A stretch of 64,000 bases of DNA from a virus (IMGVR_UViG_3300030099_006395:1-64000), one strand, 5' to 3'. Counted from the first letter of the stretch, positions 33,391 to 46,322 are shown. Notes: generated by a model not told the origin, from the letters alone. Numbers and translations: made by a program.

Positions 33391-33789
33391 ATGAAATCAC
33401 AACTATTATGTACATTTACAACAAAAGAAAATCTTGATAATACTGTTAAAATAATAATTGATGCATACAGTATTATTTTTAATAAAATATATATTTTACA
33501 AAATGAAAACAATGTAAATGAATTAATTTGTACTTATAATGTGGATACACAAAATGGTGTGGATTACAATAAAGTAAAAGGAACGATTTCACTACATAGA
33601 AAAAAACACTCTAATACATTATATACGATAAACGCTTTAAACGAAGTAATAGCAGAATTAAATAATGGAATAGTAGATAGTAAATTTTTAGTTCCTTGGG
33701 AAAATTTTAAAAATACATTATTAGTTACAAATTCAGATGGTTTAAACAGAATAGATACAAGAATTTTTAAAATAATAAAAATAGATTAG
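33391..33789 (+). CDS. conserved phage hypothetical protein
   Basis: QLLCTF, CTYNV, LHRKKHSNTLYTINALN. Confidence 0.65.
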   Translation: MKSQLLCTFTTKENLDNTVKIIIDAYSIIFNKIYILQNENNVNELICTYNVDTQNGVDYNKVKGTISLHRKKHSNTLYTINALNEVIAELNNGIVDSKFLVPWENFKNTLLVTNSDGLNRIDTRIFKIIKID

Positions 33790-33809
33790 TTGTTTTTATA
33801 ATTTCATAT

Positions 33810-33824
33810 ATACTTATATATAAA
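33810..33824 (+). promoter_or_regulatory. putative late promoter variant upstream of redox genes
   Basis: ATACTTATATATAAA, one mismatch in the core motif. Confidence 0.5.
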
Positions 33825-33865
33825 TATAAATTCAAAACACTTTAAACTTATAGGAGAAAACGGTT

Positions 33866-34669
33866 ATGTCAAAAGAAGCCAATAAAGATACAAAAAAGTC
33901 ACAAGTGGAAGAAATAAATCCAGAAGTGATTGAAGATGAAGAAGCTGACTCACCTTGGTATTATTTTTATTCACAAGGATGTGGTTGGTGTAAAAAATCA
34001 GAACCAATTGTAGATGAACTTAACAAAAACAGAGAAGAAGGTCAAGAAATATTAAAACTTGATTTAGCAGATCCTGATAATAGAGCACTTAACGAAGAAT
34101 TAAAAAAAGAATATAATATTCAATGTGGAACACCATGGTTTATTAATGAAGCTACTGGTAAAGGTATATGTGGATTCAGAGAAAAAGATATCGTTCAAAA
34201 ATGGTTAGATGGTGAAGATATTCCAGCACCACCTAGACCAAAAGGTCCTATTCCAAAACTTCCATTATTAGAAGCTCCTAAAAAAGAAGTTAATAAATGG
34301 AAAAAAGATTATGAAAAATGGTTAAAAGATAATGATCATTTACCTGATAATCAGAAAAAAAGTGTGGATGATATGTTGGCAATGCCTAGACCAAAAACAG
34401 ACCCACCAAAACCTCCAATGGCTAATATGTCAGATGATGAACTTAATAAATGGGCTGAAGAATATGATGAGTGGGCTAAAGTTAATAGTCATCTTCCAAA
34501 TTTACAACCGTCCAAAGTAATTCTACAGAGAATAAAAGGACAATCCCAACAACAAGCTGTCAATCAAGCACCAGCTATAGACAATGCAAAGTTAAATACA
34601 ATGGATGCTAAAATTCAAGCTCTTGAAGTTAAGATTGATAAAATAATGAGTCATTTTGGGGTAAAGTAA
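33866..34669 (+). CDS. thioredoxin-fold protein with Pro-rich repeated C-terminal extension
   Basis: YYFYSQGCGWCKK active site and IQCGTPWF cis-Pro loop; two PRPK..P..P...W...Y..W...N.HLP repeats. Confidence 0.8.
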   Translation: MSKEANKDTKKSQVEEINPEVIEDEEADSPWYYFYSQGCGWCKKSEPIVDELNKNREEGQEILKLDLADPDNRALNEELKKEYNIQCGTPWFINEATGKGICGFREKDIVQKWLDGEDIPAPPRPKGPIPKLPLLEAPKKEVNKWKKDYEKWLKDNDHLPDNQKKSVDDMLAMPRPKTDPPKPPMANMSDDELNKWAEEYDEWAKVNSHLPNLQPSKVILQRIKGQSQQQAVNQAPAIDNAKLNTMDAKIQALEVKIDKIMSHFGVK

Positions 34670-35098
34670 ATGGCAAGAAGGCGATTTAAGCCTAAAGTAA
34701 CTAGAGATAGAGAAGCTACTCAAGAAGAATTAAAGTGTATTGAACAAACAGAAGAGATGTTGGCGGGAGAGAAAAAACTTCCACCAGCATCTCAAATGAT
34801 TCGTGATTTAGCTACCACTCATTGGAAAACTTTGGGTGCATGGTTACGAGGTTCACAAACAATAGCTACTCAAGAAGAAGCTGCACGAAGATGGGCAATT
34901 TGTAAAGAATGTCCTCATCTTCTCTACGATGAAGTAAATCCAGACACCAATAAAAAAGATGGTAGATGTACTCATTGTGGTTGTTTTATGAATGTCAAAG
35001 TTCACTATGCAGTTGCTGATTGTCCTATCAGTAAATGGGAAAAAAAATGTGGATGTAATTCGGATTGTAAATGTGTAGATGGAGATTGTGATGAATAA
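34670..35098 (+). CDS. Cys-rich small protein (metal-binding, DUF6171-like)
   Basis: R..ICKECP...CTHCGCF...K......CPISKW plus CGCNSDCKC tail. Confidence 0.7.
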   Translation: MARRRFKPKVTRDREATQEELKCIEQTEEMLAGEKKLPPASQMIRDLATTHWKTLGAWLRGSQTIATQEEAARRWAICKECPHLLYDEVNPDTNKKDGRCTHCGCFMNVKVHYAVADCPISKWEKKCGCNSDCKCVDGDCDE

Positions 35099-35423
35099 TT
35101 TAACAAAAGAAAAATTAGATACAATATTTAAAGATGGAAAAAATATAAGTGATAAACCAATTTATATAGATTTTTATGCAGATTGGTGAGGTCCTTGTAG
35201 GATGTTTAGTAGTGTACTAGACGAAGTTTCACCTGAATACAATGATAAGGTGAATATGTATAAAGTAGATATAGAAAAGGAAACAGACTTAGCCATAAAA
35301 TTTGGAGCTAGAGCTCTTCCTTACATGGTTTTTATTCCGAAAGAGGGTGAAATAACAGGAACTCCTGGAGCTTTAAGTAAAGACCAATTAAAATATTATT
35401 TGGATGGATTAATTTCTAAATAA
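35091..35423 (+). CDS. trxA: thioredoxin, probable selenoprotein (UxxC)
   Basis: ATG 35091 behind GGAG; reads ...PIYIDFYADW-TGA(35187)-GPCRMF...KVDIE...LA.KFG.RALP; TGA occupies the first Cys of WCGPC. Confidence 0.85.
35203..35223 (+). promoter_or_regulatory. SECIS-like hairpin
   Basis: GTTTAGTA-gtg-TACTAGAC stem (one GU pair); G-first loop 22 nt after the UGA. Confidence 0.65.
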
Positions 35424-35431
35424 AAAAAACG

Positions 35432-35461
35432 TTGACTTATATATACTTTTTGATATATATT
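35432..35461 (+). promoter_or_regulatory. sigma70-type promoter
   Basis: TTGACT-N18-TATATT; the AAACGTTGACTTATA context recurs at 48856-48870. Confidence 0.6.
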
Positions 35462-35535
35462 ATAGGAAACAGGTTATATGGTTTTAGTAAACCATAAATA
35501 ATAAACGATAAACGATAAAACATAGGAGAATATTC

Positions 35536-36333
35536 ATGGACATGAATGCAATCAAAAACAGGCTAAATCAGCTACAATCAACAACTTCAAATAAAGATAA
35601 CTTTTGGAAACCTGAACCAGGTAAACAAGTAGTTCGTATTGTACCTTATTTACACAACAAAGACAATCCATTTATTGAATTGTTTTTTCACTATAATTTA
35701 GGTAACAATAAAACTTACCTATCACCAGCATCATTTGGTAAACCAGATCCAGTAGCAGAATTTGCTGACAAACTAAAATCAACAGGTAATAAAGACGAAT
35801 GGATTCAAGGTAAAAGACTTGAACCTAAAATGAGAACTTTTGCACCTGTGATTGTTAGAGGTCGTGAATCTGAAGGTGTTAAGTTTTGGGGATTCGGTAA
35901 AACTGTATATCAAGAATTACTTGGTGTAATAGCTGACCCTGATTATGGTGATATTACAGACGCTACCAATGGTAGAGATATCATGATTGAAAGACAGACT
36001 CCTGCTGAGGCTGGAAATCAATATGGTAAAACTACTGTAAGAGTTAAACCTAATCAAACTGCTATGACAGATGATAGTAATTTGATGGAAAGTTTGTTAA
36101 CTAATCAATCTGATTTAACCGAGTTATATACAGAACCATCTTATGATGATTTAAAAGAAGCTCTTCAGAATTATCTAAATCCAAGTGATGATGATACTAC
36201 TGAAACTACTACAACTTCTAATGGTGTAGCAGCTAGTACAGCTCCAACTACAAACACAGGAACTGCAACTACTACAGACACTAAAAAAACAGAAAATGTA
36301 GAAGACGCTTTTGACCAATTATTCAATAGTTAA
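35536..36333 (+). CDS. single-stranded DNA-binding protein (gp32-like)
   Basis: FWKP..GKQVVRIVP, GVKFWGFGKTVYQ, DITD...GRD; acidic tail EDAFDQLF; precedes uvsX. Confidence 0.8.
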   Translation: MDMNAIKNRLNQLQSTTSNKDNFWKPEPGKQVVRIVPYLHNKDNPFIELFFHYNLGNNKTYLSPASFGKPDPVAEFADKLKSTGNKDEWIQGKRLEPKMRTFAPVIVRGRESEGVKFWGFGKTVYQELLGVIADPDYGDITDATNGRDIMIERQTPAEAGNQYGKTTVRVKPNQTAMTDDSNLMESLLTNQSDLTELYTEPSYDDLKEALQNYLNPSDDDTTETTTTSNGVAASTAPTTNTGTATTTDTKKTENVEDAFDQLFNS

Positions 36334-36346
36334 TAAATAACCAAAT

Positions 36347-36425
36347 TGTTAAGAGTGGGATGGAAATTACACAAACCACGATTCCTGTAAAGGTGTATGG
36401 TAGAATCACTCTCCCACTCATAACA
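36347..36425 (+). other. structured intergenic RNA element (candidate)
   Basis: Outer stem TGTTA-GAGTGGGA / TCCCACTC-TAACA enclosing further complementary segments. Confidence 0.5.
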
Positions 36426-36442
36426 TCATAAGGAGAACTTAA

Positions 36443-37561
36443 ATGTCAGAAAAAGACAACTTGGCTAGTGTAATAGCTGGTGAATTAAATAAACAATTCA
36501 AACATCAAAAGGTGGCTTATTTTCTTGAAGAAGATGAGAATCCAACAGATGTTACTGATTTTATTTCAACAGGTTCAACGATGTTAGATTTAGCTATTTC
36601 CAATAGACCAAATGGTGGTATTGCCGTAGGTAAAATCACCGAATTAAATGGTTTAGAAGGTAGTGGTAAATCTTTGATAGGTTCTCATCTATTGGCTTCA
36701 ACACAAAAGAAAGATGGTATAGCAGTTTATATAGATACCGAATCAGCAGTATCTCAAGAATTTTTGAGAGCTATTGGTGTGGATACTAAAAATATGTTAT
36801 ATGTACATCTTGAAACTGTTGAAGAGATATTTGATACTATTGAAACAATTGTTACTAAAATCAGAGAATCAAACAAAGATAAGTTAGTTACAATCTTGGT
36901 TGACTCATTAGCAGCTGCTTCTACGAAAGTGGAGATGGATGCTGACTTTGATAAAGATGGTTGGGCAACAGCCAAAGCAATCATCATATCAAAAGCTATG
37001 AGAAAAGTAACACAGATGATAGCACGACAAAAAGTTGCATTGGTTTTCACAAATCAATTACGACAAAAGTTGGGTGTAATGTTTGGAGATCCTTGGACTA
37101 CTTCAGGTGGTAAGGCTCTACCATTTCATTCATCAACTCGTGTTAGATTCAAAAACGCAGGACAAATCAAAGATGGTAGTAAGAATACTATCGGTATTAA
37201 GATAAAAGGACAAGTGATTAAGAATCGTCTTGGTCCTCCAATGAGAACTGCAGAGTTTCCATTATATTTTGATACAGGTATTGCCGACTACGATAGTTGG
37301 TTAACTGTGATGAAAGAACATAAAATCTGTAAAGTTGGTGGTTCGTGGTATACATTACCACAAGTTGATACTGAAACTGGTGAATTAATTAAAGAACACA
37401 AATTTCAATCAAAAGATTTTGAAGAATTAATGAATACTAATGATGAATTAAGAGAGTATTGTTATCAACAAATCTGTGAAGCTTGTATTCTTAAATATGA
37501 TTCTAAAGAATTAGGTATTGATGATGTAGAAGAAACTGATGAGGTAGTAGATGAACTCTAA
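36443..37561 (+). CDS. uvsX: RecA-like recombinase
   Basis: ISTGS..LD, GLEGSGKS, YIDTE, VDSLAA, FTNQLR, TTSGGKAL.F, KNR..PP. Confidence 0.95.
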   Translation: MSEKDNLASVIAGELNKQFKHQKVAYFLEEDENPTDVTDFISTGSTMLDLAISNRPNGGIAVGKITELNGLEGSGKSLIGSHLLASTQKKDGIAVYIDTESAVSQEFLRAIGVDTKNMLYVHLETVEEIFDTIETIVTKIRESNKDKLVTILVDSLAAASTKVEMDADFDKDGWATAKAIIISKAMRKVTQMIARQKVALVFTNQLRQKLGVMFGDPWTTSGGKALPFHSSTRVRFKNAGQIKDGSKNTIGIKIKGQVIKNRLGPPMRTAEFPLYFDTGIADYDSWLTVMKEHKICKVGGSWYTLPQVDTETGELIKEHKFQSKDFEELMNTNDELREYCYQQICEACILKYDSKELGIDDVEETDEVVDEL

Positions 37562-38615
37562 AAAAGACTTAAATGAAAAATTTATATCTTTCTTGGATAA
37601 AACTAAAAACAATGAAAAAAAATCAGTAACACATCTGAATGACAGAGTATTGATTGTAGACGGCCTGAATACATTTATCAGGTCGTTTGCAGTTAATCCT
37701 GCTATTAATGAAGATGGATTGCACATTGGTGGTATGATGGGTTTTTTAAAATCATTGAGATATACATCAGACATTTTAAAGCCGTCAAGAGTTATTGTTG
37801 TGTTCGATGGAAAAAATGGTAGTGGTAGGAGACAGAAAATATATCCAGAATACAAATCAACTCGCAAAGTTAAGCGTAGGTTGAATCGTAATGTGGATTG
37901 GGGTACAGCTCCACAAGATGAACAACAATCTATGAAACAGCAAATGGGTAGATTGATTGAGTATTTAGAACAACTACCTTTGACTTTAATTTGTGTAGAT
38001 GGGATAGAGGCTGATGATACAATGGCTTATATATCTCAACAAGTGCTTAAAGATAGTGATATATTTATAATGTCTACAGATAAAGATTTTATTCAATTAG
38101 TAGACGATAGAGTAAAAATTTGGTCACCAACAAAAAAGAAACTTTATGATAAGAATAAAGTATTTGAAGAATATGGTATACATTCACATAACATGTTAAC
38201 TTATAGAATACTAGATGGTGACAAGTCAGATAACATAGATGGAATAAAAGGTGCAGGACTTAAAACTCTAAAAAAATTCTGCCCACAATTTTCTTCTATA
38301 GAAAAATTTACAGCTAAAGATTTATTAGAATTTGTAGAAAAATCAGATTCTAAAATAAAACTGTTGGAAAATATAAAAAAAAGTAGTAATATTGTTAAAC
38401 GAAATTATTTACTAATGCAATTAAACAATGTAGACATACCAAACCACACTAAAATGAAAATACAAGGAGCTGTGAATGGTGATGTTCCGCAACTAATTAA
38501 GTATAAATTTCAAACAATGTTTTTAAAGGATAAATTAACATCTGCTATTCCTAATCTTGATTCTTGGATTATGGAGTTTACCAGATTAGATAGATTTAGA
38601 GGATTGAATGGATAA
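37551..38615 (+). CDS. 5'-3' exonuclease/flap endonuclease (T4 RNase H-like)
   Basis: IVDGLN, VFDG, YPEYK..R, EADD, STDKDF.QL, GDKSDNIDGIKG.G. Confidence 0.92.
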   Translation: MNSKKDLNEKFISFLDKTKNNEKKSVTHLNDRVLIVDGLNTFIRSFAVNPAINEDGLHIGGMMGFLKSLRYTSDILKPSRVIVVFDGKNGSGRRQKIYPEYKSTRKVKRRLNRNVDWGTAPQDEQQSMKQQMGRLIEYLEQLPLTLICVDGIEADDTMAYISQQVLKDSDIFIMSTDKDFIQLVDDRVKIWSPTKKKLYDKNKVFEEYGIHSHNMLTYRILDGDKSDNIDGIKGAGLKTLKKFCPQFSSIEKFTAKDLLEFVEKSDSKIKLLENIKKSSNIVKRNYLLMQLNNVDIPNHTKMKIQGAVNGDVPQLIKYKFQTMFLKDKLTSAIPNLDSWIMEFTRLDRFRGLNG

Positions 38616-39960
38616 ACTAAATGAATTTGGACACACATTTCAGATAAAATCAATTGCTAGTTTGATGAAGAATCAAACATTTCTTGAACAGATACATGAT
38701 ATATTAGATGATAAACACTATGACAGTGATTCTTTAAAATGGTTAGTAAAGGAATGTAAAAAATATTATGATGAATACAGAAAGTGTATTACACTTGATG
38801 TATTTAAAGTTAAAACACAAGAAGTTGAAAATGATATTCTAAAAGTAGCTATTGTAGAAAATTTAAAAGAAGTATTTAAACACATAGAATCACCTGATTT
38901 AGAATTTGTACAAGATAAAGCACTTGATTTTTTTAAAAATCAAACTTTAAAAAATGCAATTTTAGAATCGGTTGAAATTATGGAATCAAAAGGTGATTAT
39001 GATATAATCAAGAGATTGGTGGATGACGCTTTAAATGCTGGTACGGAAAGAAATATAGGACACGAATACATTGAGCACATTGAAGATAGATATTCAGAAA
39101 CAGCTCGTGAAACTGTATCTACTGGTTGGGAAGTGATTGATGAATTAACTCAAGGTGGTTTAGGTGGTGGTGAACTTGGTGTGATTGTAGCACCTGCTGG
39201 TGTTGGTAAGACTTGGGTATTAGCTGCGATTGGTGCTAACGCAATGAAGAAAGGAAAACATATAGTTCATTATTCACTTGAGTTAAATGAATCTTATGTA
39301 GGTTTAAGATATGATAGTATCTTCACAGGTATTGCAAATCAAAACTTAAAGTTTCACAAAGAAGATGTACAAAGTGAAATGGATAAATTAAAAGGTGATT
39401 TGGTGATTAAATATTATCCAACTAAAACTGCTAGTGTGAATACCTTATCAGCACATTTGAAACGAATTACAACATTAGGAACTCAAGTTGATATGGTAGT
39501 TGTAGATTACGCTGACATACTTAAAGATACAGGCACTGCAAGAGAAGTAAGACACGCACTTGGAAACATCTATGAAGACTTGAGAGGATTGGCTGGTGAG
39601 TTTCAAATACCTGTTTGGACGGCTTCACAAGCTAATCGTTCAGCATTAGATGAAGATGTGATTGAGGCACAGAAAGTATCTGAATCATATCAAAAGATTA
39701 TGACAGCAGATTTTGTAATGTCATTAAGTAGAAAAGTAGAAGATAAGATTGGTAACACAGGTAGATTTCATGTAATCAAAAACAGATTCGGACCTGATGG
39801 TATTACTTATCCTGCTAAAGTAAATACTAATACTGGTAAAATGGAGATATATGAATCATCATCTGTCGGTGGACAAGAACAACAACAAAAAATTGATAAT
39901 CGTGACAACATCATGAAAAAAATGTTATCTAATAGATATGAAGATTTGATGAATGAATAA
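38608..39960 (+). CDS. replicative DnaB-like helicase (gp41-like)
   Basis: APAGVGKT, SLEL, VVDYAD, TASQANR, KNRFG. Confidence 0.92.
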   Translation: MDKLNEFGHTFQIKSIASLMKNQTFLEQIHDILDDKHYDSDSLKWLVKECKKYYDEYRKCITLDVFKVKTQEVENDILKVAIVENLKEVFKHIESPDLEFVQDKALDFFKNQTLKNAILESVEIMESKGDYDIIKRLVDDALNAGTERNIGHEYIEHIEDRYSETARETVSTGWEVIDELTQGGLGGGELGVIVAPAGVGKTWVLAAIGANAMKKGKHIVHYSLELNESYVGLRYDSIFTGIANQNLKFHKEDVQSEMDKLKGDLVIKYYPTKTASVNTLSAHLKRITTLGTQVDMVVVDYADILKDTGTAREVRHALGNIYEDLRGLAGEFQIPVWTASQANRSALDEDVIEAQKVSESYQKIMTADFVMSLSRKVEDKIGNTGRFHVIKNRFGPDGITYPAKVNTNTGKMEIYESSSVGGQEQQQKIDNRDNIMKKMLSNRYEDLMNE

Positions 39961-40343: not shown

Positions 40344-40674
40344 ATTAGATAAAACAGATAGTAAAGTAATACATTCAAATGAAACATATGATGTTATAGA
40401 TAATACAAATCTAAATAATCTTATAGTTTCAAAAACTATATTACATGAGGGAAAAGAAACTGGTGGTCACAATCACAAAGGACAAGAAGAAGTTTATATA
40501 TTTACAGAGGGTTCTGGTGTGATGCAAATAGATGATGAAAAGTTTTTAGTTACGAAAGGTGATATAGTATTAATACCAGATGGAGCATTCCATAAAGTAT
40601 TTAACACAAGTAACTATAAGGCAAACAATCCTTTAATATTTGTATGTGTATTTGATGGTGGGAGAAATCATTAA
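40333..40674 (+). CDS. cupin domain protein
   Basis: GHNHKGQEEVYIFTEGSG...GDIVLIPDGAFHKVFN; start adjusted to ATG 40333. Confidence 0.85.
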   Translation: MKIKLDKTDSKVIHSNETYDVIDNTNLNNLIVSKTILHEGKETGGHNHKGQEEVYIFTEGSGVMQIDDEKFLVTKGDIVLIPDGAFHKVFNTSNYKANNPLIFVCVFDGGRNH

Positions 40675-41299
40675 AGTATCTGATTTTATAATAGAACCTG
40701 TACCTCGTAGTGCTATTCAATCATTTGTACATAAATGGCATTATTCACATGATACTAATGGTGTACAACAAACACAATGTTTTGCTTTGTTTGATGACAA
40801 TAGAATGATAGGTGCTATGATATATGCTTTACCATCCATGAAATCAACAGCAGCAAAATATAATCCAGATAATCCTGATAGGTGTTGGGAGTTACGAAGA
40901 TTATGTTGTATTGATGATACACCAACAAACACAGAAAGTTATTTTATAGGGCAGACTTTAAGGTGGATAAGACAAAATACTGATATAGAAGTTATTGTAT
41001 CTTATGCTGATTTAGAACAAGGGCATGAAGGAGTCATTTATAAAGCCACTAACTTTCATTATTTAGGCCAAAGTGGTGGTGGTAGAAATTTAATGGTAGA
41101 TGGAAAAAAGTTTCACGCTAGGTCTTTAAATCAAAAAGAAAAACCCTATGGTAGGGATTTAAAAAGAAGATGGGAAAACAAAGAGGGGCATAGTTTTTGG
41201 GATTCAAAACAAGATATGTATTTTGTAAATACAAAACCAAAAAATATCTATGTTTATTACTTAAATAAAAAAATAAAAAAGAAATTACTTAAAAAATGA
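40655..41299 (+). CDS. Mom-like (GNAT-fold) DNA modification protein
   Basis: WHYSH, ELRRLC, NTESYFIG, VSYAD..QGHEGVIYKATNF.Y.G; start uncertain. Confidence 0.75.
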   Translation: MVGEIIKVSDFIIEPVPRSAIQSFVHKWHYSHDTNGVQQTQCFALFDDNRMIGAMIYALPSMKSTAAKYNPDNPDRCWELRRLCCIDDTPTNTESYFIGQTLRWIRQNTDIEVIVSYADLEQGHEGVIYKATNFHYLGQSGGGRNLMVDGKKFHARSLNQKEKPYGRDLKRRWENKEGHSFWDSKQDMYFVNTKPKNIYVYYLNKKIKKKLLKK

Positions 41300-41311
41300 T
41301 ATTTATAAATG
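41299..41311 (+). promoter_or_regulatory. putative late-type promoter upstream of RNR
   Basis: ATATTTATAAATG. Confidence 0.45.
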
Positions 41312-41356
41312 TCCAACCAAAAGGTTGTATTTTAAACTCAAGGAGAAAAAATAAAA

Positions 41357-43372
41357 ATGGATTATAAGAGATTTTCACTGTCAGATAATTTTATAGATGG
41401 TTACAAAAGAAAAAAACCCCCTTTCGGATTCAATGGATTAGGGGAACTTGTCTATATGAGAACTTATTCTCGTATAAAAGAAGACGGAAAAAACGAAATG
41501 TGGTGGGAAACTTGTCAACGAGTAGTTGAAGGTACTTACAACATGCAAAAAAAATGGATAGAATCACACCATTTAGGGTGGAATGCGTGGCAAGCTCAAA
41601 GGTCAGCTCAAGAAATGTACGACCGAATGTTTAATATGAAGTTTTTGCCACCTGGCCGAGGTCTATGGGCTATGGGAACACCAATCACAGAAGAACGAGG
41701 TTTATACGCCGCCCTTAACAATTGTGCATTTGTATCAACTGATAATCTCAAAGAGGATTTATCAAAACCATTCTGTTTCTTAATGGATGCTTCAATGGTT
41801 GGAGTTGGTGTAGGATTTGATACAAAGGGTGCAGAACAATTCGTAGTCAGAGGTCCTAAAACAGATAGAGAAACAGAAACATATGTAATACCTGATACAA
41901 GAGAAGGTTGGGTAGAATCTGTAAGACGATTATTAGATTCATACTTTCTTGGTATAACAGGTGTTAATTTTGATTATTCTAAAATTAGACCAGAGGGTGC
42001 ACCAATCAAAGGTTTTGGTGGTGTATCGAGTGGATACAAACCATTAGAAGAAGTACACAAATCTGTATCAGAATGTTTAGATAAAAACATAGGTTCACCA
42101 ATATCAATAACCACAATCGTAGACATAATGAATTTGATTGGTAAATGTGTTGTAGCAGGTAATGTTAGAAGAACTGCTGAAATAGTGTTTGGTGATCCTG
42201 AATCAGAAGAATATATTAATTTAAAAAATTATAAAAAGAACCCTCATAGAGAAATGTATGGTTGGACATCTAACAATTCAGTATTTGCTGAGTTAGGACA
42301 AGACTATACAGATATAGCAGAAAGAATTATAGACAATGGAGAACCAGGACTTGCGTGGTTAGATAATATGAAACACTATTCAAGAATGAAGAATGGTGGT
42401 GATGATAAAGACCATAGAGTTGCAGGTGGTAATCCTTGTCTTGAACAATCATTGGAATCATATGAATTATGTTGTTTGGTAGAAACATTTCCACATAATC
42501 ATAAAGATTTAGATGATTATTTAACAACATTAAAATACGCATATCTATATGCAAAAACTGTTACACTTGGAAAAACACATTGGCCTGAAACCAATCGTGT
42601 AATGTTGAGAAACAGAAGGATAGGTTGTAGTGTGAGTGGTATTGCACAATTCATTACACATAGAGGACAAGGTGAATTGAGAAATTGGTTGGAATCAGGT
42701 TATGATAAACTACAAGAGTATGATAAAAACTATTCAGATTGGTTTGCAGTACCTCGTAGTATAAAAACTACATCAGTAAAACCAAGTGGTACAGTTTCAT
42801 TGTTGGCTGGCTCTACACCAGGTCTACATTATCCAGAAAGTAGGTTCTATATCAGAAGAATTAGGTTATCGGTGAACTCACCATTAATCAAACCTTTAGA
42901 AAAAGCTGGTTATAAAATTGAACCTGCATTTGGTAGTGAAGATTCAACAGTAGTAATCGAAGTACCTGTAGATGTAGGTGAAGGAATCAGAACAGTGAGT
43001 GAAGTTCCAATGTGGGAACAAATGGCATTAGCAGCATTTATGCAAAGGTATTGGGCGGATAATCAAGTAAGTTGTACGGTTACATTTGACCCTGAAAAAG
43101 AAGGTCCTATGATAGCGACAGCACTTAACTATTTTCAATATCAGTTAAAAGGTATCTCATTCTTACCTAAATTAGAATTAGGTGCTTATAAACAAATGCC
43201 ATATGAAGAAATATCTGAAAAAAAATATAACGAAATGGTAAAGAAATTAAGTTTCTTATCATTCAGACAGGTAAAAGGTAATGAAGCTGAGATTGATAAA
43301 TTCTGTAATAATGACACTTGTGAAATTGATTTGGAAGCAATTAAAGAAACTCAAGAAATGGAGAACGCATAA
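41357..43372 (+). CDS. nrdJ: class II (adenosylcobalamin-dependent) ribonucleotide reductase
   Basis: RTYSR, PPGRGLW, LNNC, GNVRRTAE, NPCLEQ, CCLVE, VKPSGTVS; C-terminal FCNNDTC. Confidence 0.92.
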   Translation: MDYKRFSLSDNFIDGYKRKKPPFGFNGLGELVYMRTYSRIKEDGKNEMWWETCQRVVEGTYNMQKKWIESHHLGWNAWQAQRSAQEMYDRMFNMKFLPPGRGLWAMGTPITEERGLYAALNNCAFVSTDNLKEDLSKPFCFLMDASMVGVGVGFDTKGAEQFVVRGPKTDRETETYVIPDTREGWVESVRRLLDSYFLGITGVNFDYSKIRPEGAPIKGFGGVSSGYKPLEEVHKSVSECLDKNIGSPISITTIVDIMNLIGKCVVAGNVRRTAEIVFGDPESEEYINLKNYKKNPHREMYGWTSNNSVFAELGQDYTDIAERIIDNGEPGLAWLDNMKHYSRMKNGGDDKDHRVAGGNPCLEQSLESYELCCLVETFPHNHKDLDDYLTTLKYAYLYAKTVTLGKTHWPETNRVMLRNRRIGCSVSGIAQFITHRGQGELRNWLESGYDKLQEYDKNYSDWFAVPRSIKTTSVKPSGTVSLLAGSTPGLHYPESRFYIRRIRLSVNSPLIKPLEKAGYKIEPAFGSEDSTVVIEVPVDVGEGIRTVSEVPMWEQMALAAFMQRYWADNQVSCTVTFDPEKEGPMIATALNYFQYQLKGISFLPKLELGAYKQMPYEEISEKKYNEMVKKLSFLSFRQVKGNEAEIDKFCNNDTCEIDLEAIKETQEMENA

Positions 43373-43577
43373 TCCATTTACCAAACATCCGAAACAAAAT
43401 GCGGATGAAACTTGGTGGGAACATTTAAAGTTTGCAACTCATATTGGGTTTAGATTATTTTTTACATCATTTTATTTTATAATACATGGTGTACTTCCAT
43501 TTATTAAAATACCGAAATGGATTAACATTTCTGCTACGGCAGAATATTTATTAAAAGAGAATAGGAAAAGAAAATAA
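43281..43577 (+). CDS. small membrane protein (DUF6356-like)
   Basis: NPFTKHP....ETWWEHLKFA...IIHGVLPF; true start probably downstream of the annotated one. Confidence 0.55.
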   Translation: MKLRLINSVIMTLVKLIWKQLKKLKKWRTHNPFTKHPKQNADETWWEHLKFATHIGFRLFFTSFYFIIHGVLPFIKIPKWINISATAEYLLKENRKRK

Positions 43578-44074
43578 TGAAAATAGATTGGAAGAAATCA
43601 GTAATAATATTAAGTGGTGGGTTCGACCCAATACACAAAGGACATATGAGAATGTTCAGAGAAGCTAGTAATTTAGGACATCAAGTAATCGTAGGATTAA
43701 ATTCAGACGAATGGTTAACAAGAAAAAAAGGTAAACCATTTATGGAGTTCTACGAAAGAAAAGAAATACTTGAAGGTATAAAATATATTAGTTCAGTTGT
43801 AAAGTTTGATGATTCTGATGATACTGCTAATTCACTAATTACTCAAGTTAGAACTACATATAATGGTGGAATGTTTAATCACGACTTTGAAGATAAAAAC
43901 CCAACAGGTAGAAATGATTATAGGATATATTTCGCTAATGGTGGAGATAGAGGTAAAGGTAACACACCTGAAATGGACACTTGTAGAAAACTCGATGTAA
44001 CAATGTTATGGGGAATAGGTGGTGGTAAAATTCAATCATCATCATGGTTAATTAATGGAGGAAAAAATGAGTAG
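43577..44074 (+). CDS. cytidylyltransferase-family nucleotidyltransferase
   Basis: SGGFDPIHKGH, VGLNSDEWL.RKKG, FANGGDR, KIQSSS. Confidence 0.88.
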   Translation: MKIDWKKSVIILSGGFDPIHKGHMRMFREASNLGHQVIVGLNSDEWLTRKKGKPFMEFYERKEILEGIKYISSVVKFDDSDDTANSLITQVRTTYNGGMFNHDFEDKNPTGRNDYRIYFANGGDRGKGNTPEMDTCRKLDVTMLWGIGGGKIQSSSWLINGGKNE

Positions 44075-44222
44075 AGGAACACCTGAACAATATTTACAGA
44101 TGTTTTTGTCTGAACAAATTATGCCAAATGAATGGTATAGGATATTAAAAGAAAGACCTGATGTAAATAAATTATATCAAAAATACCTGGAGAAAAGAAA
44201 TGTGGAACATAAAACTAATTAA
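44067..44222 (+). CDS. small hypothetical protein (51 aa, not in ORF track)
   Basis: MSRGTPEQYLQMF...; GGAGG SD. Confidence 0.55.
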   Translation: MSRGTPEQYLQMFLSEQIMPNEWYRILKERPDVNKLYQKYLEKRNVEHKTN

Positions 44223-45537
44223 AAATATATTTAAAGTATTTTGTTTACTTGGATTAATACTATTATTTTGTAATAGTTGTCAAGATTCAAATCCAATGAC
44301 AATGGAAGAACCTTGTTGTGTGAATCCTCCTGATTTAGATTTAAGGTCTGAAGAACAACATACGGTGATGCCTGGTGAACTACCACAACCAATGATTGTC
44401 GGTGGTGAGGAAGTAAACCCAGCTTGTCCTAATTGTAAATATGATTTCATGGTTTCATTACAAACAGATGGTTGGTTTGGTGGACACTTTTGTGGTGGTT
44501 CATTGGTTAGAGAAGATTGGGTTGTGACAGCTGCTCATTGTGTTCAAGGTACTTCACCAAATAGTATTGAAGTGGTTATCGGATTACATAATGTAAACGG
44601 AACTACAGGACAACAAACAAGAAATGTATCGGAAATAATCATACATCCACAATATAGTGGTAACTCTTTAAATAACGATTATGCTCTGTTGAGATTATCA
44701 TCACCAATCACAGATTTTGAACCGATTAAATTATGTACAGATACTGCACACGATGAAGAACCTGTAATGTCAACAACAATGGGTTGGGGAGCAATATATA
44801 GTGGTGGTCCTTCATCAAGTGTATTACTTGAAGTAGATGTACCCATTGATGATTCTTGTGGTAACTATTCTAATTCAGATATAACAAACAATATGGTATG
44901 TGCTGGTGATGGAAATGGTGGTGAAGATTCTTGTCAAGGAGATAGTGGAGGCCCTTTGATTATGACAAACTCTGATGGTGAGTATGAGTTAATCGGAATA
45001 GTAAGTTGGGGTTATGGTTGTGCTGAAGCTCAGTATCCGGGTGTGTACTCTAAAATTCATAGTAGATTAAATTGGTTCTTTAGTTACATTGGAGAACCTG
45101 AAGAAGATTTTGTAGTAGATTTATATGGTGATGTTAACTTTGATAATTCATTGGATATAACAGATGTTATATTATTGATTAACTTTGTTTTAGGACAAAC
45201 ACCAACAGAAGAGGAATCATTAACTGCTGATATGAATCAAGATGGTATTGTAAATATACTTGATGTGATATTGTTAGTTAATGAAATATTAGGAACAACA
45301 TTTAGTCAATCTGTACAATGGTTGGAAGAAAACTTTCCATCATTAAAAACAAAAGAAAGATTAAGTAAATTAGATAAATCACAATTTTTTGCAAAAAGAA
45401 ACAATTGTATTCAATTACAAAAAGAATTTGATATCTTACTAAAAGAATATGAAGAATTAGAAACAAGATATAGATTACTACAGAAATTAGATTTAGATAA
45501 ACAAAAAATTATAAAAAAATTATCGGAGGAAAAATGA
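44200..45537 (+). CDS. secreted/lipoprotein trypsin-like S1 protease with dockerin domain
   Basis: Hydrophobic leader ending FCNSC; IVGG, TAAHC, NDYALL, DSCQGDSGGP; dockerin GDVNFDNSLDITDV / ADMNQDGIVNILDV; C-terminal coiled coil. Confidence 0.9.
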   Translation: MWNIKLIKNIFKVFCLLGLILLFCNSCQDSNPMTMEEPCCVNPPDLDLRSEEQHTVMPGELPQPMIVGGEEVNPACPNCKYDFMVSLQTDGWFGGHFCGGSLVREDWVVTAAHCVQGTSPNSIEVVIGLHNVNGTTGQQTRNVSEIIIHPQYSGNSLNNDYALLRLSSPITDFEPIKLCTDTAHDEEPVMSTTMGWGAIYSGGPSSSVLLEVDVPIDDSCGNYSNSDITNNMVCAGDGNGGEDSCQGDSGGPLIMTNSDGEYELIGIVSWGYGCAEAQYPGVYSKIHSRLNWFFSYIGEPEEDFVVDLYGDVNFDNSLDITDVILLINFVLGQTPTEEESLTADMNQDGIVNILDVILLVNEILGTTFSQSVQWLEENFPSLKTKERLSKLDKSQFFAKRNNCIQLQKEFDILLKEYEELETRYRLLQKLDLDKQKIIKKLSEEK

Positions 45538-45923
45538 TGGGGAAAAAAATGGATAAACATATTTACTCAGCAAAACTTCAAAGAGTCGTAGATGGTGACA
45601 CTTGTGATGCTCTAATTGACTTGGGTTTTGATACTTGGGTTAAGAAAAGAATTAGATTTTATGGAGTGGATACTTGGGAATCAAGGACACGGAACAAAGA
45701 AGAAAAGGTAAAAGGATTAGCTGCAAAAGCATATACAAAAGATTTATTAGAAAATTCAGACGAGGGTAAGTTCTTATTAAAATCTCACGGAGTTGGGAAA
45801 TATGGACGGGTCCTCGGTGAACTATTTGTAAAAGGTCACGAACAATCAGTAAATGAATTGTTGAAAGAAAACGGACATGCTAGTGCTTACTATGGTGGAA
45901 AGAAAAAAGTGTTCGGAGGATAA
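45534..45923 (+). CDS. thermonuclease (SNase-like)
   Basis: RVVDGDT, RIRFYGVDTWESR, GKYGRVLG. Confidence 0.85.
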   Translation: MMGKKMDKHIYSAKLQRVVDGDTCDALIDLGFDTWVKKRIRFYGVDTWESRTRNKEEKVKGLAAKAYTKDLLENSDEGKFLLKSHGVGKYGRVLGELFVKGHEQSVNELLKENGHASAYYGGKKKVFGG

Positions 45924-46322
45924 ATGAAAATAGGTTTTACTTGTAGTTGTTTTGATTTATTACACGCTGGACATATATTGATGTTAAAAGATGCTAAATC
46001 ACAATGTGATAAATTAATAGTTGGATTACAAACAGACCCAACATTAGACAGGCCAGAAAAAAACAAACCAATCCAAACATTAAAAGAACGTAAGATACAA
46101 CTTGAAGCTGTAAAATATGTAGATGATATATTTGTATATGATACGGAGGAAGAGTTGTATCATTTGTTAAAATTAATAAATCCTGATATAAGAATATTAG
46201 GTTCTGATTATGAAGATGGTAGATATTATACCGGAGTGGAGTTAAATATTCCAATATATTTTCATAAAAGAAATCATAATTATTCCTCAACAAATTTACG
46301 AAAAAAAGCTTGTTTAAAATAA
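45924..46322 (+). CDS. glycerol-3-phosphate cytidylyltransferase-like
   Basis: FDLLHAGH, VGLQTDP, R.HNYSSTNLR. Confidence 0.85.
   Translation: MKIGFTCSCFDLLHAGHILMLKDAKSQCDKLIVGLQTDPTLDRPEKNKPIQTLKERKIQLEAVKYVDDIFVYDTEEELYHLLKLINPDIRILGSDYEDGRYYTGVELNIPIYFHKRNHNYSSTNLRKKACLK

What the first reader, a model, noticed from the sequence alone, without database searches (positions are those of the whole stretch)
35091..35423. Probable phage-encoded selenoprotein: thioredoxin W-U-G-P-C with SECIS-like hairpin
Seen: the ORF track starts at 35202, but the frame extends to ATG 35091 (GGAG SD, overlapping the previous gene) with a single TGA at codon 33, exactly where the nucleophilic Cys of WCGPC lies. 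Both flanks are intact thioredoxin sequence. A stem-loop GTTTAGTA-GTG-TACTAGAC begins 14 nt after the TGA. TGA is a normal stop elsewhere (40213, 41299, 45537, 50798). Known: bacterial Sec insertion uses UGA plus an immediately downstream hairpin with G early in the apical loop, and UxxC thioredoxin-like selenoproteins occur in marine bacteria. Inference: the phage uses host SelA/B/C/D, which restricts the host to a Sec-utiliser.
Basis: partly seen in the sequence, partly recalled or inferred. Interest (0 to 1): 0.85.

Follow-up and report, generated by a model that had tools for sequence, protein, structure and literature searches.

The report
Phage selenocysteine thioredoxin with own tRNA-Sec
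A large uncultured marine phage carries a thioredoxin gene whose catalytic cysteine codon is a conserved UGA followed by a selenocysteine-insertion-type hairpin. The same phage genome also encodes a textbook selenocysteine tRNA, so a bacterial virus most likely makes a selenoprotein with part of the machinery on board, which I found in no paper I could search.

Summary
Window 35091-35423 (+) is a complete 110-codon thioredoxin (Pfam E 6e-22; AF2 pLDDT 94.9). Its only internal stop is TGA at 35187-35189, the first Cys of W-C-G-P-C. A hairpin (35204-35222) has its apical loop 22 nt after the UGA.

It is not an error or a private mutation. Twenty distinct DNA sequences, down to about 50% amino-acid identity, keep the TGA. 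So do about 90 further protein clusters, miscalled as W-W-G-P-C or as 73-aa fragments.

Cys-type orthologues sit at the same locus in the same phage clade. The Sec forms are one clade nested among them. dN/dS is 0.34 on both sides of the TGA. The hairpin occurs only in TGA-bearing genes. It is built from codons that are rare in this genome and was rebuilt with a different sequence in the window's subclade.

New here: the same 113-kb virus record, outside the window at record positions 103633-103727, holds a bona fide bacterial-type tRNA-Sec (Rfam 69.4 bits against a cut-off of 47). No selA, selB or selD was found, so the host must supply them.

Caveats: covariation and folding energy are weak, the host is unknown, and there is no read or protein evidence. 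This scan has flagged similar phage selenoprotein candidates on other DNA. The eight notes shown mention no tRNA-Sec of the phage's own.

The parts
35091..35423 (+). Thioredoxin gene, 110 codons plus TAA, read with UGA = Sec at codon 33 (active site W-U-G-P-C). Its partner, the tRNA-Sec (anticodon UCA), lies beyond the window's end at positions 103633-103727 (+) of the same virus record, whose numbering the window shares (L001 1501-1595). It cannot be listed as a part of its own.
   Evidence: Gene: translation; Pfam PF00085 E 6e-22; AF2 pLDDT 94.9, TM 0.84 to E. coli Trx 2trx. ATG 35091 is the conserved start; the upstream ATG 35079 is not conserved in L003 and L004. tRNA-Sec: Rfam RF01852 69.4 bits against a cut-off of 47; ARAGORN tRNA-SeC with 8-bp acceptor stem, 6-bp D stem with 4-nt loop, 5-bp T stem, long variable arm, G73 and encoded CCA.
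35187..35189 (+). In-frame UGA at the position of the nucleophilic Cys; proposed Sec codon
   Evidence: TGA in all 20 distinct Sec-type genes. TGT in the orthologues L012, L014, L015, L024 and L085.
35204..35222 (+). SECIS-like hairpin: 8-bp stem (35204-35211 with 35215-35222) and apical loop GUG (35212-35214); the loop starts 22 nt after the UGA
   Evidence: Folds (hairpin alone -6.8 kcal/mol). Stem invariant in L003, L005 and L006. Fits the published bSECIS constraints.
35081..35084 (+). GGAG ribosome-binding site, 6 nt before ATG 35091, inside the end of the preceding gene
   Evidence: Read directly from the sequence.
33866..34669 (+). Upstream module gene 1: thioredoxin-like protein with a C-G-W-C motif and a long C-terminal extension
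   Evidence: Weak PF00085 and phrog_22 matches. Syntenic in all Sec-type and Cys-type loci.
34670..35098 (+). Upstream module gene 2: Cys-rich protein (phrog_13558, weak DUF6171 match); its end overlaps the Trx start
   Evidence: 66-92% identical across the syntenic Sec-type and Cys-type loci.
41357..43372 (+). Class II (B12-dependent) ribonucleotide reductase, candidate client of the thioredoxin (inferred)
   Evidence: Pfam RNR_Alpha E 2e-43, RNR-II insertion domain and barrel domain.

Best explanation
The gene encodes a selenocysteine-containing thioredoxin with active site W-U-G-P-C.

Proposed mechanism. During infection the UGA at codon 33 is recoded as Sec by the bacterial SelB pathway. 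The hairpin 14 nt downstream, with its apical loop 22 nt after the UGA, acts as the in-ORF SECIS. Sec-tRNA-Sec is delivered on the phage's own tRNA-Sec, which host SerRS would charge with serine and host SelA and SelD would convert to Sec. The selenol makes the thioredoxin a faster disulfide reductant. Its likely client is the phage's B12-dependent ribonucleotide reductase, 6 kb downstream in the same replication and nucleotide block, within a conserved three-gene redox module.

Shown here: the conserved, selected, translated UGA at the catalytic Cys; the Sec/Cys orthology; a hairpin specific to the TGA forms; and the presence of a canonical tRNA-Sec.

Inferred: actual Sec insertion, the host supply of SelA, SelB and SelD, use of the phage tRNA for this codon, and the RNR client.
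For: 1. The full-length product is a complete thioredoxin. Pfam covers 12-104. The AF2 model has pLDDT 94.9 and places residue 33 at the N-terminus of helix 34-50. TM is 0.84 to 2trx and the best matches are Bacteroides TrxP at 41-42% identity.

2. TGA is kept in 20 distinct genes down to about 50% identity, and none has any other internal stop. Among the top 120 protein clusters, 53 read W at that column, which is TGA translated by table 4. A further 39 are fragments that start downstream of the TGA (37 at the internal ATG), and 27 have Cys.

3. Cys-type genes sit at the same locus (hyp-CGWC-CysRich-Trx-gp32-RecA) in phages whose RecA is 86-91% identical. The 20 Sec rows form one clade, with support 99/96, nested among Cys forms.

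4. dN/dS is 0.34 for codons 2-32 and 0.34 for codons 34-110 over 175 pairs. Both halves are therefore translated in this frame.

5. A local hairpin of about -7 kcal/mol is present in every TGA gene and absent (0 to -1.3) from the Cys orthologues. Two different sequences occupy the same place. Type B (TTGAGC-AGGT-GCTCAA) occurs in 16 sequences. Type A, the window's subclade, is nested within type B.

6. The type B stem uses GAG-CAG-GTG-CTC: GAG and CAG in every sequence with that residue, GTG in all 16 type B rows and CTC in 15 of them. Genome-wide usage of these codons is 0.19, 0.13, 0.11 and 0.013.

7. The hairpin fits the published bSECIS model: loop 3-9 nt, stem 4-16 bp, G in the first two loop positions, spacing 16-37 nt.

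8. The tRNA-Sec scores 69.4 bits. True bacterial tRNA-Sec genes scored 57-76 bits in four genomes, and their other class II tRNAs scored 44.4 or less.
Against: - No selA, selB or selD was found in the 113-kb record, which is 63% complete. The host is unknown, so the existence of a Sec-competent host is assumed.
- Linkage of the tRNA-Sec and the Sec-Trx rests on this one genome. Every other contig with the Sec-Trx is 49 kb or less, and the tRNA lies 68 kb from the Trx.
- Folding energies are not better than shuffles (z -0.7 to -1.3).
- Covariation is weak: one compensatory pair, and 98 of 500 shuffles do as well.
- In type B an alternative long-range helix pairs equally well.
- No Rfam SECIS match.
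- A 10-N scaffold gap lies 193 nt upstream of the tRNA, although the same polynucleotide-kinase gene spans it.
- No read-level, RNA or protein data could be obtained.
Confidence: 0.85

Rival explanations
1. The UGA is read through by ordinary opal suppression, using a suppressor or near-cognate tRNA that inserts Ser, Trp, Cys or Gly. The protein would then carry a standard residue, not Sec.
For: Two fragments of related phages (L212, L223) carry canonical 7/5 class II tRNAs with a UCA anticodon. These score only 41.6-41.7 bits as tRNA-Sec. Phage suppressor tRNAs are well documented (preprint 10.1101/2021.08.26.457843, listed).
Against: - This genome's UCA tRNA has the 8/5 fold, the 6-bp D stem with a 4-nt loop, and G73, all features of tRNA-Sec.
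- Its variable-arm loop carries no CCA decoy.
- The single recoded codon is exactly the catalytic Cys. Trp, Gly or Ser there would inactivate a thioredoxin.
- A hairpin specific to the TGA forms is not needed for plain suppression.
- TGA is used as a stop by complete genes nearby.
Confidence: 0.08
2. The UGA is a real stop. The locus would then make a 32-aa peptide and, by re-initiation at ATG 35202, a 73-aa C-terminal protein, so this would be a split or regulatory arrangement.
For: Gene callers predict exactly these pieces: 73-aa and 32-aa entries appear in public protein sets. Codon 38 is ATG in 18 of 20 sequences.
Against: - L020 and L023 have CAA at codon 38.
- The 73-aa piece lacks the active site and the first helix and strand of the fold.
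- Purifying selection is identical on both sides, in one frame.
- The TGA aligns with Cys in the orthologues.
Confidence: 0.04
3. The TGA is a sequencing or assembly error, or a recent nonsense mutation making a pseudogene.
For: None beyond the bare fact of an internal stop. Read-level data could not be obtained.
Against: The TGA is present in 21 other IMG/VR contigs and in metagenome contigs from independent samples, on deeply diverged sequences with no further defects.
Confidence: 0.01

Closest known systems
Bacterial Sec-containing thioredoxins (PF00085 with UxxC), as in Geobacter, Anaeromyxobacter, Carboxydothermus and Treponema denticola (PMC1794560), and the Trx and Trx-like selenoproteins of the GOS and Sargasso metagenomes (PMC2398784)
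   Same: Same fold. Sec replaces the N-terminal Cys of the CxxC motif. The SECIS lies inside the ORF directly after the UGA, and Cys-containing homologues exist.
   Different: - It is encoded by a phage, in a conserved phage locus between structural or unknown genes and gp32/RecA.
- No close homologue was found in one genome each of 185,579 prokaryote species; the best was 48% identity over part of the length.
- The marine surveys attributed their selenoproteins to bacteria and reported few or no viral sequences (PMC9402790).
E. coli fdhF-type Sec recoding (SelA, SelB, SelC, SelD with a bSECIS) and the bSECISearch consensus model (summarised in PMC13188914)
   Same: UGA followed by a small hairpin with G early in the apical loop, at 16-37 nt spacing. 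The tRNA has the 8/5 fold.
   Different: The components are split between virus and host: the tRNA and the client gene are on the phage, and the enzymes were not found on it. The hairpin is short (6-8 bp, about -7 kcal/mol). Its binding to SelB is untested.
Putative tRNA-SeC of Basilisk-like Bacillus phages (PMC6145125)
   Same: A tRNA-Sec call in a phage genome. [quoted passage not shown]
   Different: That report rests on a tRNAscan-SE call and names no selenoprotein gene; the authors state that its significance is unknown. Here the tRNA comes with a client gene carrying a conserved UGA and hairpin.
Selenoproteins of eukaryotic viruses: glutathione peroxidase homologues of molluscum contagiosum and fowlpox viruses (recalled from memory; PMC1802603 was listed but not read)
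   Same: A virus encodes a selenoprotein and depends on cellular Sec machinery.
   Different: Those use eukaryotic SECIS and SBP2 machinery and the GPx family, and no viral tRNA-Sec is involved.
Phage-encoded suppressor tRNAs of stop-codon-recoded phages (preprint 10.1101/2021.08.26.457843)
   Same: A phage-borne tRNA reads a stop codon.
   Different: Those reassign a stop codon genome-wide to a standard amino acid. Here TGA remains a stop elsewhere and a single codon is recoded with a cis element.
Phage use of thioredoxins: T4 NrdC as RNR reductant and host Trx as T7 DNA polymerase processivity factor (established knowledge; 1t7p appears among the structural matches)
   Same: A small thioredoxin-fold protein embedded in the replication and nucleotide-metabolism genes of a phage.
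   Different: None of those is a selenoprotein. The client here is inferred only from the presence of a class II RNR.

Membership tests
Thioredoxin (Pfam PF00085) | Profile match over the curated cut-off across the whole domain | tested here: met
   78 bits against a cut-off of 23.5, residues 12-104 against model positions 13-101 of 103.
Thioredoxin (Pfam PF00085) | W-C-G-P-C active site at the N-terminus of helix 2, and the conserved cis-Pro loop | tested here: met
   W32-U33-G34-P35-C36 with the helix starting at residue 34. P77 is invariant in 25 sequences. The first Cys is replaced by the UGA codon.
Thioredoxin (Pfam PF00085) | Thioredoxin fold | tested here: met
   AF2 pLDDT 94.9. Foldseek TM 0.84 to E. 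coli Trx 2trx, and E 5e-12 to B. fragilis TrxP.
Bacterial selenoprotein gene (Sec/Cys-pair criteria, PMC13188914) | In-frame TGA aligned with a conserved Cys of homologues | tested here: met
   TGA against TGT at the same codon of orthologues at the same locus.
Bacterial selenoprotein gene (Sec/Cys-pair criteria, PMC13188914) | TGA-containing homologues in other organisms, with conservation on both sides of the TGA | tested here: met
   20 distinct genes; dN/dS 0.34 upstream and 0.34 downstream.
Bacterial SECIS (bSECISearch consensus, PMC13188914) | Apical loop of 3-9 nt, upper stem of 4-16 bp, G in the first two loop positions, 16-37 nt between UGA and loop | tested here: met
   Window: loop GUG, 8-bp stem, spacing 22 nt. 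Type B relatives: loop AGGU, 6-bp stem, spacing 22 nt.
Bacterial SECIS (bSECISearch consensus, PMC13188914) | MFE of -7.5 kcal/mol or lower | tested here: inconclusive
   UGA plus 57 nt gives -10.2 in the window and -7.2 to -13.2 in relatives. The hairpin alone gives -4.4 to -7.6, and z-scores against shuffles are only -0.7 to -1.3.
Bacterial SECIS (bSECISearch consensus, PMC13188914) | Structure supported by covariation | tested here: inconclusive
   Within type B there is one compensatory pair and three wobble changes, with 98 of 500 shuffles doing as well. Support comes from the replacement of the whole stem between types A and B, and from rare-codon use.
Bacterial tRNA-Sec (Rfam RF01852, selC) | Covariance-model score over the gathering cut-off | tested here: met
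   69.4 bits against 47. Calibration on four bacterial genomes: true tRNA-Sec 57-76 bits, other tRNAs 44.4 bits or less.
Bacterial tRNA-Sec (Rfam RF01852, selC) | 8-bp acceptor stem plus 5-bp T stem, 6-bp D stem with 4-nt loop, long variable arm, UCA anticodon, G73 | tested here: met
   ARAGORN structure drawing and sequence.
Bacterial tRNA-Sec (Rfam RF01852, selC) | Serylation by SerRS, conversion by SelA, binding by SelB | not testable with these tools
   Needs biochemistry.
Complete Sec-decoding trait (selA, selB, selC, selD) | All four genes present in one genome | tested here: not met
   Only selC is present. TIGR00474, TIGR00475 and TIGR00476 gave no match in the 113-kb record, which is 63% complete. 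The phage is not a self-sufficient Sec decoder on present evidence.
Selenoprotein (experimental definition) | Selenium shown in the polypeptide | not testable with these tools
   No proteomic or labelling data.

The most novel reading that the evidence does not exclude
The phage-encoded tRNA-Sec is functional and is the tRNA that decodes the UGA of the phage's own thioredoxin. That would make it a virus-borne piece of the 21st-amino-acid machinery with a dedicated client gene, letting the phage set the capacity for Sec insertion in the infected cell instead of depending on the host's scarce selC product. A stronger and less likely version is that the unsequenced third of the genome carries further sel genes.
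Probability: 0.55. Interest if true: 0.9.

Novelty: new variant of a known kind. Interest (0 to 1): 0.85.

Why it matters
Selenocysteine decoding is treated as a trait of cells. A 2026 review of the prokaryotic selenoproteome does not contain the words phage or virus. The marine trace-element survey found few or no viral sequences among selenoprotein families.

Here a widespread clade of marine phages keeps a Sec codon in a thioredoxin. It accounts for about 90 sequence clusters at 90% identity, found in Tara and other ocean data. One near-two-thirds-complete genome also carries a tRNA-Sec.

If this holds, four things follow.
- Phages take part in marine selenium use.
- A phage's host range is tied to Sec-competent hosts.
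- Public protein sets hold many of these genes wrongly, as W-W-G-P-C proteins or as fragments.
- The system gives a compact natural pair of UGA-hairpin and tRNA-Sec to test how small a bacterial SECIS can be.

Tried and rejected
**Searches that gave nothing useful**
- The genome-contig scan found no close cellular homologue and no TGA form among the hits.
- Rfam found no SECIS family at the locus.

**Other selenoprotein genes in the record**
- Two scans, one for in-frame TGA with both sides open and one for CxxU/UxxC motifs, found only this gene.

**The tRNA-Sec in relatives**
- It was absent from seven fragments bearing the Sec-Trx, all 49 kb or less.
- The exact tRNA sequence was not found elsewhere in IMG/VR.
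- It was not found upstream of the homologous downstream gene in 45 viral loci.
- The 169-kb record G012 shares that gene but has no RecA, Trx or tRNA-Sec match. It is a different phage and uninformative.

**Host search**
- BLAST of the tRNA against 401 Bacteroidota genomes found nothing, and the method is too insensitive to count as evidence.
- The nearest cultured phage, Microcystis phage Mel-JY01 (RecA 53% identical), has no tRNA-Sec over the cut-off and no Trx at the corresponding place.

**Rejected structures**
- In type B, an alternative long-range helix (UGAG/CUCA plus ACCU/AGGU) pairs as well as the local hairpin. By my reading of alignment A4 it is mostly broken in type A. Its 16-nt loop also violates the bSECIS model, so I prefer the local hairpin.
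- The extra hairpin at 35191-35203 in the window is not conserved.

**Report form**
It is now described under the gene's part.

Full report
**1. The observation**

Window 35091-35423 (+) reads as a 110-residue protein with one internal stop, TGA at 35187-35189, giving W-U-G-P-C.
- The ORF list shows the two table-11 pieces: 35079-35189 and 35202-35423.
- GGAG lies 6 nt before ATG 35091. That ATG overlaps the end of the preceding gene (34670-35098).
- ATG 35091, not the upstream ATG 35079, is the start conserved in relatives.
- With Cys in place of Sec, Pfam Thioredoxin matches residues 12-104 against model positions 13-101 of 103, at E 6e-22.
- An AlphaFold2 model built on 25 homologues has pLDDT 94.9. 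It superposes on E. coli thioredoxin at TM 0.84. The best-scoring chains are Bacteroides TrxP at 41-42% identity.
- Residue 33 sits at the N-terminus of helix 34-50, where the nucleophilic Cys of thioredoxin sits. The 32 residues before the TGA form a helix and a core strand. The 73-aa piece alone would therefore not be a thioredoxin.
- The hairpin GTTTAGTA-GTG-TACTAGAC is at 35204-35222.
Two of them end genes with complete Pfam domains. TGA ends 30 of 157 long ORFs in the record. TGA is therefore not reassigned genome-wide.

**2. The TGA is conserved and selected**

DNA-level evidence:
- Two IMG/VR relatives, at 91% and 75% amino-acid identity, keep the TGA.
- A profile-guided scan and an exact DNA pattern scan found 21 IMG/VR contigs with D-F-Y-A-x-W-TGA-G-P-C.
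- Together with three metagenome contigs and the window, this gives 20 distinct genes of 110-111 codons. They go down to about 50% identity with the window's gene, and each has the TGA as its only internal stop.

Protein-database evidence (5.8-billion-protein set, top 120 clusters):
- 53 clusters are full-length proteins reading W-W-G-P-C. These come from short AT-rich contigs translated with table 4. No TGG was seen at this codon in any DNA I held.
- 39 clusters are fragments that start downstream of the TGA, 37 of them at the internal ATG.
- 27 clusters have Cys.
- Sources include Tara Oceans. One fragment cluster is seen on 35 contigs, the longest 151 kb.

**3. Sec and Cys forms are orthologues**

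- All Sec-type and all close Cys-type genes lie in the same gene order: hypothetical gene, C-G-W-C thioredoxin-like gene, Cys-rich gene, Trx, gp32, RecA. The RecA proteins are 85-100% identical.
- In a maximum-likelihood tree the 20 Sec rows form one clade with support 99/96. The Cys-type phage genes L024 and the L012 group branch below it, and more distant Cys thioredoxins lie outside.
- The simplest reading is one Cys-to-Sec change followed by long retention. The root is a midpoint root, so the direction is an inference.
- Pairwise dN/dS over 175 pairs is 0.34 for codons 2-32 and 0.34 for codons 34-110, with dS of 0.7-1.0. Both sides of the TGA are under the same purifying selection in one frame. 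This fits read-through, and does not fit a pseudogene or two separate products.
- Two Sec-type genes have CAA instead of ATG at codon 38. They could not re-initiate there.

**4. The hairpin**

Every TGA gene can form a local hairpin whose apical loop starts 22 nt after the UGA, but there are two versions.
- Type A (the window, L003, L005, L006): an 8-bp stem with loop GUG or GUA.
- Type B (16 sequences): stem TTGAGC/GCTCAA with loop AGGU.
- Type A is nested inside type B in the tree. The stem was therefore replaced, along with the encoded residues (F-E-Q-V-L-N became F-S-S-V-L-D), while a hairpin stayed in place.
- Hairpin energies are -4.4 to -7.6 kcal/mol in the TGA genes. At the same place in the Cys orthologues they are 0 to -1.3.

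Codon choice points to selection at the RNA level.
- The type B stem is written GAG-CAG-GTG-CTC: GAG and CAG in every sequence with that residue, GTG in all 16 type B rows and CTC in 15 of them.
- Elsewhere in the same genes Glu is GAA and Leu is mostly TTA.
- Across the genome these four codons make up 0.19, 0.13, 0.11 and 0.013 of their amino acids.
- The Sec forms have also lost the proline that canonical thioredoxins and the Cys orthologues keep four residues after the second Cys (C-G-P-C-K-x-F-E-P). Its codon position lies in the stem.

Fit to the published model, and the limits of this evidence:
- Both versions fit the bSECIS consensus in loop size (3-9 nt), stem length (4-16 bp), G in the first two loop positions and 16-37 nt spacing. 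They are borderline on energy (PMC13188914).
- Shuffles fold nearly as well (z -0.7 to -1.3).
- Within type B there is one compensatory change (T-A to C-G in L007), three wobble changes and two kinds of break. In total 98 of 500 shuffles do as well.
- An alternative helix that includes the UGA pairs equally well in type B. By my reading of alignment A4 it is mostly broken in type A.
- Rfam has no matching family.

**5. The tRNA-Sec**

- The window is the first 64 kb of a 113,475-b IMG/VR record that CheckV rates 63% complete. At record positions 103633-103727 (+) Rfam finds tRNA-Sec at 69.4 bits against a cut-off of 47, and ARAGORN calls tRNA-SeC(UCA).
- The drawn structure has an 8-bp acceptor stem, a 6-bp D stem with a 4-nt loop, a 5-bp T stem, a long variable arm, G73 and an encoded CCA. 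This is the bacterial 8/5 form.
- Calibration: in four bacterial genomes the true tRNA-Sec scored 57-76 bits, and every other tRNA scored 44.4 bits or less.
- Earlier notes of this scan describe phage Trp suppressors whose variable arm carries a CCA decoy anticodon. This tRNA's variable-arm loop does not.
- Its G+C of 50.5% is lower than that of the 28 other viral-contig tRNA-SeC genes examined, which range from 54% to 72%. This fits long residence in an AT-rich phage.
- The gene starts 1 nt after the end of a polynucleotide-kinase gene (phrog_415 and phrog_505). It is followed by a gene with relatives in 45 viral contigs. Both flanks are therefore phage DNA.
- A 10-N gap lies 193 nt upstream, inside the kinase gene. 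That gene matches kinase profiles on both sides of the gap.
- selA, selB and selD profiles found nothing in the record.
- No other gene in the record has a convincing in-frame TGA. The thioredoxin is therefore the only visible client.

**6. What it probably does**

The phage is a large marine myovirus-like phage with gp32, RecA, a 5'-3' exonuclease and a DnaB-like helicase next to the Trx. Its nearest cultured relative, Microcystis phage Mel-JY01, is only 53% identical in RecA.

Six kilobases downstream lies a class II, B12-dependent ribonucleotide reductase. Thioredoxin is the usual reductant of such enzymes; that is established knowledge and was not tested here. I therefore propose that the Sec-thioredoxin re-reduces the phage RNR, perhaps together with the two conserved upstream Cys-rich partners. 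The client is an inference.

**7. Host**

The host is unknown.
- The closest cellular and solved thioredoxins are from Bacteroidota, at 40-48% identity.
- The nearest cultured phage infects a cyanobacterium.
- A 2006 survey found the Sec-decoding trait in neither phylum (PMC1794560). The one flavobacterial genome I checked had no tRNA-Sec over the cut-off.
- This tension is unresolved. It is the main reason to want complete genomes and host links.

**8. Comparison with what is known**

- Sec-thioredoxins (UxxC) are a known bacterial selenoprotein family (PMC1794560) and were seen in GOS marine reads (PMC2398784).
- The recoding mechanism proposed here is the standard bacterial one.
- What differs is the carrier and the division of labour: the gene and the tRNA are on a phage, and the enzymes were not found on it.
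- The only phage tRNA-Sec mention I found concerns Basilisk-like Bacillus phages. It was a tRNAscan-SE call with no client gene, and the authors state that its significance is unknown (PMC6145125).
- Seven literature searches found no report of a phage selenoprotein.
- This scan has flagged similar candidates on other phage DNA, in at least seven other genomes. The eight notes shown mention no tRNA-Sec of the phage's own. I did not test those notes.

**9. Verdict**

This is a real, selected UGA recoding at the catalytic residue of a phage thioredoxin, most likely to Sec (0.85). A phage-encoded tRNA-Sec lies in the same genome. It is a new variant of a known kind, and interest is high. Sec insertion itself, the host's contribution and the RNR client remain to be shown.

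Noticed in passing
G000:C1:103633-103727 (L001 1501-1595), outside the window: The tRNA-Sec (UCA) that belongs to this finding lies 68 kb beyond the thioredoxin gene, outside the window. It could not be entered under parts. It scores Rfam 69.4 bits against a cut-off of 47 and has the canonical bacterial 8/5 structure.
   Followed up: yes
G000:C1:91967-92387 (L002 1501-1921), outside the window: tRNA-Arg(UCU) directly followed by a one-piece tmRNA gene with tag peptide GNEYQYMAVA. With the tRNA-Sec, these are the only three tRNA-like genes in the record.
   Followed up: no
L202 592-685 (IMGVR_UViG_3300030012_002439, 10.7 kb, 31% G+C): A second AT-rich marine myophage fragment carries a tRNA-Sec over the Rfam cut-off (72.1 bits). 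It lies between a PhoH gene, homologous to G000 112346-112891, and baseplate genes (gp25-like). The tRNA is only 65 of 95 nt identical to the one in G000.
   Followed up: partly
L223 6071-6163 (-) and L212 3029-3123 (+): Two fragments of related phages carry canonical 7/5 class II tRNAs with a UCA anticodon, G73 and CCA. They score 41.6-41.7 bits as tRNA-Sec, below the cut-off, so they look like opal suppressors. L223 is syntenic with window 33570-39954 but has this tRNA and small ORFs where the three-gene redox module sits.
   Followed up: partly
IMG/VR loci L178-L235: At least 28 viral contigs hold an ARAGORN tRNA-SeC(UCA) call. Most are GC-rich and several lie at contig ends, which suggests prophage borders at host selC rather than phage genes.
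   Followed up: no
Public protein clusters P0004-P0075 and P0038-P0108: Public protein sets store this family wrongly. 53 clusters appear as W-W-G-P-C proteins (TGA translated by table 4), 39 as fragments of 69-74 aa, and at least one as a 32-aa N-terminal piece.
   Followed up: yes
window 35432-35460: A sigma-70-like promoter (TTGACT, 17-nt spacer, TATATT) lies just after the Trx stop and before gp32. The stretch AAAAAAAACGTTGACTTA is invariant in three relatives.
   Followed up: no
window 40640-46322: The block downstream of the helicase holds a Mom-family protein, the class II RNR, two cytidylyltransferase-like proteins, a trypsin-family protease with a dockerin domain (unusual for a phage), and a staphylococcal-nuclease homologue.
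   Followed up: no
G000:C1:103430-103439: A run of 10 N (scaffold gap) inside the polynucleotide-kinase gene, 193 nt upstream of the tRNA-Sec. The gene reads in frame across it.
   Followed up: partly
Alignment A3, residues 37-42: Sec-type thioredoxins have lost the proline that follows the active site in canonical and Cys-type forms (C-G-P-C-K-x-F-E-P). Gln or Ser takes its place, and that codon lies in the hairpin stem.
   Followed up: partly
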